A stretch of 64,000 nt of DNA from Octopus sinensis. Taxonomy: Eukaryota. The position numbers and the translations under genes are program-made. How positions within the stretch are numbered: position 1 is the first letter of the stretch; the number at the start of each line of letters is the position of its first letter. Location: NCBI RefSeq assembly GCF_006345805.1, contig NC_043001.1, positions 2,046,001 to 2,110,000 on the forward strand. Direction: 5' to 3'. The notes beneath the pieces were generated by a model that ran no database searches, was not told where the DNA came from, and saw only the letters and a list, made by a program, of their open reading frames with translations. Of the stretch, positions 1,704 through 9,872 are shown piece after piece.

Positions 1704-1880
1704 GTAATAATAATAACAATAATAATAATAACAACAACATCAAAAAATACTTTAAGAATGAGAACCCAGGTTCGAAATTTTCCTAAGACACTTGATGAAG
1801 GCTGGAGGGTATATCAGCTGAAACGTGTTAACAACAGACAAGATGAGGACAAATATTCGTCAGATGTAAATATAATGTAG
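1590..1880 (+). mobile_element. Composite element: truncated tRNA-like head, (AAT)n, hammerhead cassette
   Basis: GGGCATATGGTGTAGTGG head, (AAT)n at 1623-1740, then GAGAACCCAGGTTCGAAATTT..GACAC-ttgatga-AGGCTGGAGGGTATATCAGCT-GAAACG. Same order as 8161-9155. Confidence 0.7.
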
Positions 1881-5173: not shown

Positions 5174-6455
5174 TCGGGCTGAGGAATAATTCAAGAGTGA
5201 TCTTTTCAAATTTATTTTAAACAAAAAAACTACAACAAATTAATCAATAATATACTCTCTGCTGTTGTTTATGACTTCCTCTCATCATTCAATAAGTTTT
5301 TGATGCGTCAGCAATAGAAATTTCCTGGTCCTGACTCAAAGAATTCGTCCAACCAAGTCCCCAATTCTACATCATTATTGAATGATATACACACAAGACA
5401 TTCGAAAGCAGTTGAAAGAGATGAAAATCTGACGGAGCCAAGTTTAGAGAGTATGGAGGATGAGGCGACACTTCTCATTCGAGTTCTTGAATCGCAGGTT
5501 TGGTCATATTGAGGACAGGCATTGTTGTGCTGCAGAAGAATTCCATTTCACCTATTCGTTCTTTTTTGCTGAATTACTTTGTTGAGTTGGTGCAGTTGTT
5601 GAATGTATAACTCCACATTGAGTGTTTAGCTATGCTCAAGTCGTTCATAATGAATTATGCCTTCTCAGTCCAACCATACATACAACATGGTATTTCAATG
5701 ATGAAGGTCTTGTTTTGCTCCCGGAGTTGCTGGTTTGTCGGGGCTGAGCCATTCTTTTTGCTGCTTCATATTGATGTAAAGGCACCAATATTCATTGCCA
5801 GTGACAATGTTGTAAAGAAAATGCTGTTTGTGACCATGTGTTGAGCAATGTCGTGTGAGTAAACTGGCGATGATTGTGGAGCATTGATTTTTGTTGTTCT
5901 TGCTCAAAGTGTGTGGCACCCAATCTCCATGTTTCTGAACCTTGCCCATTGAGTGAACGTGGTTCAGCACAGTTTTCTTTTTTTTATCAAACTCCATCTG
6001 CTCCACCAATCCCCTGGTCGTTTGATGTGATTTTTCCTGAAGAAGTTGATTCAATGACTCTTCATTGAACTCAGTTGGCCAGCCAGTGTGTGATCCGTGC
6101 TTGAGGTCAAGATTCCCCTTTTTGAAGCATGGAAACCAACAGCAGATGGTATTTTAAGGTATTGCTCCTTCTCCATACACAACATGAATCTCATGAACAG
6201 CTTCAGTGGCCTTAACACCTCGATTAGATACAAAAAGCAAATGGAGTCAAAAATACTCAGTTTTGTCCACTTGACATTCCCTTTTAATTATCTGAAAATA
6301 GACAAAAATCAGTAAAAATTAAAAATCAAAAGACACTGTCTTGTAGAGCAAGAAATTCTCTTTTAAATAACATAAAACATTTTGCCAATGTGTTTTATTT
6401 CTGTGTGCATTTTTAAATTTGTAATAAAACGCTCATGAATTATTCCTCAACCCAA
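5174..6455 (-). mobile_element. Full-length decayed mariner transposon (about 1.28 kb)
   Basis: TIRs TCGGGCTGAGGAATAATTCAAGAG and revcomp TTGGGTTGAGGAATAATTCATGAG, TA on both sides. Minus-strand WVPHTL, IVTGNEYW and PHPPYSLNLAPSDFHLF motifs with stops and frameshifts. Confidence 0.93.
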
Positions 6456-6632
6456 TATGTGGATCTGAATATATGTGTATACAGATGTGTGTGTGTGTGT
6501 GCATGTGTGCAGGTATGTACGTGTACTGTGTGGCTGTATGTCAATTAGTCTGCAATGTTTAAGCTGGTCAGTTCAAAAGCTCTACCTCTGTCCTGCCTCT
6601 GTCAAGCCACAAATTGCTCCCCAACTAAAAAA

Positions 6633-6832
6633 ATTTCTGAAGGAATAAAGGGTGCATTATGCCGCCTTCTCATCAGGAAAGACAAGGAACTTATGTCAGC
6701 ATCATGACGAACAAAAACTTTTAGATGACTGCCCACACGGAGTCCATAGTGATAATGTCATGATGCTGACATAGGTTCCTTGCCTTTCCTGATGAGAAGG
6801 CGGCATAATGCACCCTTTATTCCTTCGGAATT
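6633..6832. repeat. Long inverted repeat (about 75-bp arms, about 50-bp spacer); inverted partial copy of a hammerhead-bearing terminal repeat
   Basis: GAAGGAATAAAGGGTGCATTATGCCGCCTTCTCATCAGGAAAG..ATGTCAGCATCATGAC mirrored by GTCATGATGCTGACAT..CTTTCCTGATGAGAAGGCGGCATAATGCACCCTTTATTCCTTC. Confidence 0.9.
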
Positions 6833-6865
6833 AGGAATATGCTGTCTTTGAAACATATGTCGAGA
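6785..6865 (+). ncRNA. Intact type I hammerhead ribozyme with long stem II
   Basis: TTTC-CTGATGA(6789-95)-GAAGGCGGCATA..TATGCTGTCTTT (12 bp including GU pairs)-GAAAC(6850-54)-ATAT-GTC(6859-61)-GAGA. Palindromic ACATATGT; AATAAA at 6865-70. Confidence 0.8.
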
Positions 6866-6935
6866 ATAAAGGAATTTTGTTAAATCGTTGTTCAACTCCA
6901 TTCTTTCATTTATTTATATATAAATATATATATAT

Positions 6936-7532
6936 AGACCCAGGAAAACCTGGGACGAGGTGGTAAAGCACGACCTTCGAACTTTAGGTCTCACCAAGGA
7001 AATGACTAGAGACTGAGACCTATGGAAGTATGCTGTGTGTGAGAAGACCTGGCAAGACCAGTGAGAACAGTCAAAATCAAACCAAATCAACATCAGTGGA
7101 AATTGCAGCTGTGGTTAAGCGAACCATCCGATTGTTTGACCGTTGCCAGCCTCGCCTGGCCCCCGTGCCGTTGGCACGTAAAAGCACCATCCGCTCGTGT
7201 TCGTTACCAGCCTCGCCTGGCCCCCGTGTCGGTAGCACGTAAAAGCACCATCTGTTCATGTCCGTTGCCAGCCTCGCCTGGCCCCCGTGCCGGTGGCGCG
7301 TAAAAACACCATCCGTTCATGGCCGTTTGCCAGCTCTGTCTGGCACCTGTGCAGGTGGCATGTAAAAAGCACCCACTACACTCACGGAGTGGTTGGCATT
7401 AGGAAGGGCATCCAGCCGTAGTAACACTGCCAAATCTGACTGGGCCTTATGAAACCTTCCGGCTTCACAGACCCCAGTTAAACCGTCCAACCCATGCTAG
7501 CATGGAAAACGGACGTTAAATGATGATGATGA

Positions 7533-9035: not shown

Positions 9036-9081
9036 GACACCTGATGAAGTCTGGAGGGTATATCAGCCGAAACGTTGTGTT
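9036..9081 (+). ncRNA. Minimal type I hammerhead ribozyme (dimer type)
   Basis: GACAC-CTGATGA(9041-47)-A-GtCTG gagggtatat CAGCC-GAAAC(9069-73)-GTT-GTGTT. Stem I GACAC/GTGTT, palindromic AACGTT, GUU site. Confidence 0.75.
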
Positions 9082-9872
9082 AACAACAAAGAAGAAAAGG
9101 ACAAATATCTGTCAAATGTAAATAATGTAAATAATGTACATAATGTAAATGTATAGCTCTTACTAACAGGTGGACAGTCAGTAGCATATCCCTTTCATTT
9201 CAACTTTCTAGGATGTGCCTCTTTTATTGGGCTTCTTTGTTTGGCATAATCTCCTATTGTATTTCCAATTCTTTTATTATTTTGCCCATTCTCTTATTTA
9301 TATTGCTGATTCTCTTGTTGTCATCCCCTTGGGGCCATTTAGCAGAGTCCATTCCATTGAAAGCCTTCAGGTCAAGTCTCTTTATTTTAGTTTAGCTTCC
9401 TTGCTGTCTCAACACCTTTCCCCATTTCCAGAGACCCTATAAAAGATCGTTAACAATGCCTTCCATTCTGATTCAAGAAAAGAATATTGAACTCATAGCC
9501 TGATACTCCCACTCCAGCAGGGTAACTCATTAAAGATTTCTTATTGCTTAAGGCTTACCAGCAAATGTCAGCCATCACTGGCTCAACCTGAACAAGCAGT
9601 AATCATTTTGATTTATTAATCTAAGACAACTTGTAATGGCTCTGCACAAGGCTTTATCTTATTCGCACTAAAATCTTAAATCTTGTGCAGCCTGTTCCCA
9701 TTACAAGTTAAATATTCCTGTCTTTGGGAAGATAGGACATATATCTCTTGAGTTTTAGACAGACAAGATCATTTATATTAAGATGGTCCGGTGATGGTTG
9801 CACAACCTGTTTGGATGGATTATCATACTACATTTCTTCCTGGCCTTTGACTTGTGTCACAGGGACAACTGA

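What the first reader, a model, noticed from the sequence alone, without database searches (positions are those of the whole stretch)
6785..6872. Intact hammerhead whose enlarged stem II loop can pair with its own downstream AATAAA
Seen: a perfect core (CUGAUGA, GAAAC, GUC), a 12-bp stem II with a 30-nt apical insert, and palindromic ACAUAUGU. The insert's CCTTTATTC (6814-22) is the exact complement of GAATAAAGG (6864-72), which covers the AATAAA just 3' of the cleavage site. Inference: either a pseudoknot that stabilises the short stem I, analogous to the loop I-II contacts of natural hammerheads, or a switch coupling self-cleavage to polyadenylation.
Basis: partly seen in the sequence, partly recalled or inferred. 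Interest (0 to 1): 0.72.

Follow-up and report, generated by a model that had tools for sequence, protein, structure and literature searches.

The report
Long-armed Hydra retrotransposon hammerhead
This is a hammerhead ribozyme motif at the end of a very common Penelope-type jumping gene in what is likely an octopus genome; it has an unusually long arm and is predicted to cut RNA only weakly and in pairs, and the special pairing proposed for it is likely a side effect of two ordinary stems that use similar sequences.

Summary
The motif lies in the terminal repeat (pLTR) of a Penelope-like retrotransposon with RT and GIY-YIG ORF and Hydra-clade motifs; 4,131 matches genome-wide. The window copy is a short head-to-head truncation ending in (TA)n.

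The proposed pseudoknot is poorly supported. GAATAAAGG is the 3' strand of a long stem I, and CCTTTATTC pairs locally in a second hairpin. Position 6816 stays paired with 6834 in 1,219 of 1,228 copies (C-G, U-G, U-A), but mismatches the proposed partner in 64 of 124. With the same 3' strand, 555 copies lack the perfect complement and 205 have it. At this locus the segment would be buried in a 74-bp antisense hairpin.

Not excluded: the 5-bp UUAUU/AAUAA core is nearly invariant, the hexamer is AATAAA or AGTAAA in 136 of 146 copies, and energies are close before any pseudoknot penalty. No cleavage or poly(A) data were obtained. The scan already noted long-armed Hydra hammerheads elsewhere in this genome. 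Verdict: new member of a known kind.

The parts
6757..6922 (+). 5'-truncated pLTR copy (about -104 to +61 from the cut site), ending at the element's short 3' end
   Evidence: 91.6% identical over 167 nt to the 3' pLTR of near full-length copy L136
6632..6757 (-). Inverted (head-to-head) pLTR copy, about -153 to -28; stops inside the stem II insert, so its hammerhead is incomplete and the long tail is missing
   Evidence: 91.9% to L136 over 123 nt; arms 6635-6708/6757-6830, 96%; loss of the rest is inferred from other copies
6643..6651 (+). GAATAAAGG in the inverted arm: antisense partner of 6814-22 inside a 74-bp hairpin
   Evidence: MFE -149 kcal/mol for 6632-6920
6773..6788 (+). 5' strand of stem I (distal 6773-81, proximal 6785-88)
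   Evidence: pair counts
6789..6795 (+). Core C3-A9, CUGAUGA
   Evidence: CUGAWGA
6796..6849 (+). Stem II (12 bp) with 30-nt insert 6808-37 that folds as a second imperfect hairpin (6814-22 with 6828-35)
6814..6822 (+).
   Evidence: 6816:6834 paired in 1,219 of 1,228 copies
6850..6861 (+). GAAA, 2-bp stem III with palindrome ACAUAUGU (6853-60), and GUC; predicted cut after 6861
   Evidence: self-duplex -8.4 kcal/mol and self-pairing variants
6862..6877 (+). 3' strand of stem I, containing AATAAA at 6865-70
6915..6936 (.). (TA)n target microsatellite
   Evidence: the same flank in other copies

Best explanation
This is the hammerhead motif in the terminal repeat of an abundant Penelope-like retrotransposon, likely of the Hydra clade, left here as a short head-to-head truncated insertion; it likely folds with GAAUAAAGG as the 3' strand of stem I and CCUUUAUUC inside a second hairpin, and it is predicted to cut only weakly and as a dimer. 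Shown: family membership, link to an RT/GIY-YIG ORF, two fixed 3' ends (+64 and +214), variable 5' truncation, inverted partner, (TA)n target, paired changes in stems I, II and the insert hairpin. Inferred: two hammerheads on one tandem transcript pair their ACAUAUGU palindromes to build helix III and cut after C17, perhaps helped by the element's protein; most inserted copies came from uncut RNA; this copy would be inactive in any transcript that starts upstream of 6635 because the antisense arm buries its 5' half. The 9-nt complement likely arises because stem I and the insert hairpin use near-identical purine strands (GAAUAAAGGAAU and GAAUUAGGAAU).
For: 4,131 pattern matches, reversed control 0. 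20 of 20 loci found with an upstream fragment carry the hammerhead arm about 800 nt downstream, one with an internal deletion. L136 shows partial pLTR, tail, ORF pieces, pLTR, tail; YRDD motif, RVT_1 E=0.0012 below cut-off; SIY-YIG, DKT, CxxC and CxH read by eye against Craig 2021. 6816:6834 is C-G 912, U-A 169, U-G 138, C-A 9. Perfect complement 205 versus 555 with one break and the same 3' strand. Loop III variants AUAU 115, AUGU 27, ACGU 1 of 146, and 25 of 25 ACGU in subfamily F, all self-pairing. 29 of 30 tail-bearing copies run across the cut site.
Against: No cleavage was measured. Copy counts reflect few independent events. RNAalifold recovers only stem II. The insert hairpin's closing pair is broken in 5 of 23 rows. 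In the window copy the catalytic fold is 3.6 kcal/mol above the MFE, and proximal stem I has pair probability about 0.33. Hydra placement rests on motifs by eye; the CxCX5C linker is absent and the element is about 3.5 kb.
Confidence: 0.82

Rival explanations
1. A short loop II/stem I pseudoknot (UUAUU with A(A/G)UAA) forms in the active fold, as in natural pseudoknotted hammerheads, alternating with the local insert hairpin.
For: The five core pairs are kept in 20-23 of 23 rows; the A-to-G change at 6866 keeps a G-U pair. In B-type subfamilies AAUAA lies unpaired in an enlarged stem I loop and the contact costs +1.1 to +1.3 kcal/mol before penalty (L041, L206); in subfamily E it scores -2.4. 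About 40% of hammerheads were predicted to use a stem I-II pseudoknot (PMC3088659 passages).
Against: No double change inside the core except none-to-one rows; both strands have other partners that explain their conservation. In the window copy the 5-bp contact costs +5.0 kcal/mol. In C, C2, D, F and G the hexamer is largely inside a continuous stem I. PMC3088659 reports that stem lengths constrain such contacts; here stem II is 12 bp.
Confidence: 0.1
2. The ribozyme gates a real poly(A) signal: stem I (not the insert) hides AAUAAA, and cleavage five bases upstream removes the signal from the upstream transcript, as in Clec2.
For: AATAAA 127, AGTAAA 9, other 10 of 146; a CA about 23 nt downstream followed by U-rich sequence (poly(A)-site layout recalled). 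The Clec2 precedent is in PMC6765202 (passage).
Against: Inserted copies end at +64 or +214, so their templates were not polyadenylated near +30. Stem I pairing alone can explain the conserved hexamer. No poly(A) data were obtained. This is compatible with the best explanation, not exclusive of it.
Confidence: 0.2
3. The motif no longer cuts; the fold is kept for another job, such as a protein-binding or template-structure element.
For: Most copies derive from uncut RNA; no excess of copies starting at the cut (6 at +1, 19 at +4, 3 at -2, 0 at +2); fold-backs at the cut (5 loci) are no more common than at nearby short palindromes. PAc ribozyme mutants still insert in vitro (PMC11167929).
Against: Core, A15.1-U16.1, GUC/GUA and a self-pairing helix III are kept in all subfamilies examined, including the youngest.
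Confidence: 0.12

Closest known systems
Hydra-clade Penelope-like elements and their hammerheads, including Hydra-1_Obim (Craig et al. 2021, PMC8557442; seen: passages, section 11, supplement look-ups and part 2 of 59)
   Same: C-terminal GIY-YIG, DKT, CxxC and CxH, (TA)n target, hammerhead near the 3' end, inverted 5'-truncated copy, tail on one end; ORF motifs line up by eye with the printed Hydra-1_Obim protein
   Different: Stem II is 12 bp plus a 30-nt insert, against 3-7 bp and 3-10 nt loops in the listed Hydra hammerheads; RWF for RWK; Asn-rich linker without CxCX5C; about 3.5 kb; tail about 150 nt rather than 30-40; a different family from Hydra-1_Obim
Metazoan PLE hammerheads with small palindromic helix III (Cervera and de la Pena 2014, PMC4209133; seen: parts 1-2 of 4)
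   Same: Type I, in pLTR, palindromic 15.2-16.2 region, predicted dimer, pairs on opposite strands 100-700 bp apart
   Different: Longer stems I and II; no extra nucleotide between A9 and 10.1; G-U at 10.1-11.1 in some young subfamilies
PAc (Poseidon) of Anolis (PMC11167929; seen: parts 1-2 of 4)
   Same: Two 3' ends matching a tail, AT-rich target, uncut RNA as main template
   Different: ORF starts about 260 nt past the cut here, not inside stem II; different clade
Pseudoknotted hammerheads (Perreault 2011, PMC3088659; seen: passages)
   Same: Concept of base pairs joining stems I and II
   Different: There the pairing adds to the stems; here the 9-bp helix would compete with stem I and shows no covariation
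Non-LTR retrozymes (bioRxiv 10.64898/2026.07.22.740005; seen: part 1 of 5)
   Same: Type I hammerhead in a short non-coding repeat tied to PLEs
   Different: This is a truncated end of a coding element with variable 5' ends, not a fixed tandem non-coding unit

Membership tests
Type I hammerhead | Core CUGANGA, GAAA, UH | tested here: met
   invariant in 23 of 23 rows except N7 and H17
Type I hammerhead | Stems I-III around the core, stem I open | tested here: met
   stem III is 2 bp as a monomer
Type I hammerhead | Self-cleavage after H17 | not testable with these tools
   junction counts gave no excess at the cut
PLE hammerhead, dimer type | Palindromic helix III kept by variants | tested here: met
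   AUAU 115, AUGU 27, ACGU 1, other 3 of 146; F 25 of 25 ACGU
EN+ Penelope-like element | RT and C-terminal GIY-YIG upstream of a hammerhead pLTR | tested here: met
   motifs by eye; Pfam RVT_1 below cut-off, no GIY-YIG Pfam hit
EN+ Penelope-like element | 5' truncation, inverted 5' copy, tail at one end | tested here: met
Hydra clade | DKT in place of DKG | tested here: met
   QSDKT in L136 ORF
Hydra clade | RWK motif | tested here: inconclusive
   RWF at that place
Hydra clade | CxxC and CxH around conserved E and N; no CCHH | tested here: met
   CGVC..E..N..CMH read by eye
Hydra clade | CxCX5C linker | tested here: not met
   Asn-rich linker without it
Hydra clade | (TA)n insertion | tested here: met
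Hydra clade | Length generally under 3 kb | tested here: not met
   about 3.45 kb unit (L134, L136)
Hydra clade | Placement in an RT tree with published Hydra proteins | not tested
   compared by eye only; so filed as Hydra-like, likely Hydra
Pseudoknotted hammerhead | Pairing that coexists with stem I | tested here: not met
   9-bp form leaves 2 bp of stem I; shorter forms drop distal stem I; possible only in B/E types
Pseudoknotted hammerhead | Compensatory changes in the pseudoknot helix | tested here: not met
   event counts are inconclusive

The most novel reading that the evidence does not exclude
The long arm is a two-state element: its near-invariant UUAUU swaps between the local hairpin and the AAUAA of a real poly(A) signal built into stem I. 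The retrotransposon would then choose between self-cleavage, polyadenylation and read-through to its two reverse-transcription start sites with one RNA fold; B-type subfamilies, which opened a stem I loop that exposes AAUAAA, would be the natural test.
Probability: 0.1. Interest if true: 0.65.

Novelty: new member of a known kind. Interest (0 to 1): 0.27.

Why it matters
The role of hammerheads in Penelope-like elements is still open. This family offers thousands of copies, about ten subfamilies including one with identical copies, a structured 54-nt arm and a hexamer overlapping stem I, so it is a good natural allele series for testing cleavage, dimer need and 3'-end formation. The window copy itself is an ordinary decayed insertion.

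Tried and rejected
Rfam found no hammerhead; the miRNA-type hits only reflect the long hairpin. A fixed palindromic MITE or retrozyme reading was rejected: spacers and 5' ends vary and long copies run into an ORF. Sequencing runs: no RNA holder listed on record; contigs of guessed-RNA runs cover the family but give no starts, ends or poly(A) information, and none bridged this copy's unique flanks (many loose-end rows not shown). Genomic footprint of cleavage: 4 of 84 anchored copies begin at about 0 to +2, but genome-wide counts show no peak, and fold-backs at the cut (5 loci) match those at CATATG and TTCGAA centres. A forced double-hammerhead energy was not obtained (crashed). No other part of the element or its ORF lies in the window. 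For alignment A1 I used the window copy plus 22 of 39 cluster representatives; left out were 3 non-family hits, 7 whose stem I 5' strand is replaced by a junction, 5 with deletions and 2 decayed singletons. A1 has register errors in L199 and the D-type insert. The samples of 146 and 124 copies are biased towards copies like my queries. Paper searches listed nothing on this family or on a PLE hammerhead overlapping a poly(A) signal; the library lacks most subscription papers and Repbase, and Lunse et al. 2017 was seen only through a review passage.

Full report
Observation. All stated features are at the stated places. The 9-nt complement is modestly above chance, 327 of 20,000 shuffles. An inverted repeat, 6635-6708/6757-6830, turns the region into a -149 kcal/mol hairpin that buries the 5' half of the ribozyme, including 6814-22.

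What it belongs to. The region is a repeat in a 2.72-Gb animal genome; a core pattern has 4,131 matches and the reversed control none. Copies end at +64 or +214 from the cut, are variably truncated at the 5' end, often carry an inverted partner, and sit in (TA)n. Walking upstream reached an ORF: 20 of 20 loci found with an upstream fragment carry the hammerhead arm, and L136 holds partial pLTR, tail, ORF pieces, pLTR and tail. The ORF has YRDD, a weak RVT_1 match, SIY-YIG, DKT, CxxC and CxH; it lacks the CxCX5C linker and has RWF for RWK. This fits the Hydra clade as described in PMC8557442 section 11 and, by eye, its printed Hydra-1_Obim protein. The named homologues are Octopus proteins, so the host is likely an octopus. 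The window copy is a sense pLTR piece (6757-6922) joined head-to-head to an antisense piece (6757-6632) that has lost its outer part.

Test of the proposed pairing. Genome-wide, 205 copies have the perfect complement and 555 have the same 3' strand with C at 6816. That base follows a local partner, 6834: C-G 912, U-A 169, U-G 138, C-A 9. RNAalifold recovers only stem II. The UUAUU/AAUAA core is nearly invariant, and in B-type subfamilies AAUAA is unpaired in a stem I loop. So the 9-bp pseudoknot is not a family feature; a 5-bp contact stays possible.

Mechanism. Stem III has 2 bp as a monomer, and its palindrome varies only among self-pairing forms in 143 of 146 sequences (F subfamily 25 of 25), as expected for the dimer model of PMC4209133. 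Cleavage is inferred, not shown. 29 of 30 tail-bearing copies span the cut and no excess of ends at the cut was found, in line with uncut RNA as the main template in PAc. The hexamer is AATAAA or AGTAAA in 136 of 146; it could be a leaky poly(A) signal hidden by stem I, but inserted copies extend beyond it and no RNA-end data were available.

Comparison and novelty. PLE hammerheads, head-to-head truncations and an octopus Hydra element are in print. The arm is longer than in the Hydra hammerheads of File S2, although a spike-moss PLE there has a 35-nt loop. Earlier notes of this scan report long-armed Hydra hammerheads in other pieces of this genome; none matched this sequence. My reading was fixed before I saw them. 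Verdict: new member of a known kind, interest 0.27; the switch reading has probability about 0.1.

Noticed in passing
window 1792-1830 (+) and 9040-9082 (+): Two copies of another short hammerhead-like repeat next to (AAT)n runs; the first has T at the C3 position. My stem scan did not score them.
   Followed up: partly
window 5695-6153 (-): 152-aa frame that looks like a mariner-type transposase fragment (WVPH and VTG motifs; family name recalled, no search)
   Followed up: no
window 7140-7373: 61-bp unit repeated 3.8 times inside another dispersed repeat
   Followed up: no
L252-L276 (subfamily F): 25 of 25 hammerheads identical, 40 top hits at 100%: a very young subfamily, with ACGU loop III and GUA triplet
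   Followed up: partly
G000: Head-to-head junctions near the ribozyme often centre on short palindromes (TCGA, CATATG, TTCGAA), suggesting fold-back by microhomology
   Followed up: partly
P0002, P0040, P0055: Pieces of this element's ORF family are named GATA zinc finger or myb-like host proteins in public databases, likely misannotation through the Asn-rich linker
   Followed up: no
L066:1700-1745 and matching tails of other subfamilies: Pyrimidine tract followed by a conserved CAG/G in the tail before the ORF start; looks like a 3' splice site (by eye)
   Followed up: no
L015 / G000:C4:17372075-17375362: Three tandem copies of a whole 550-nt palindromic insertion
   Followed up: no
window 58994-59052 and 60285-60343: Identical 59-nt stretch at two places, both matching the loose hammerhead pattern; no stem support
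   Followed up: no
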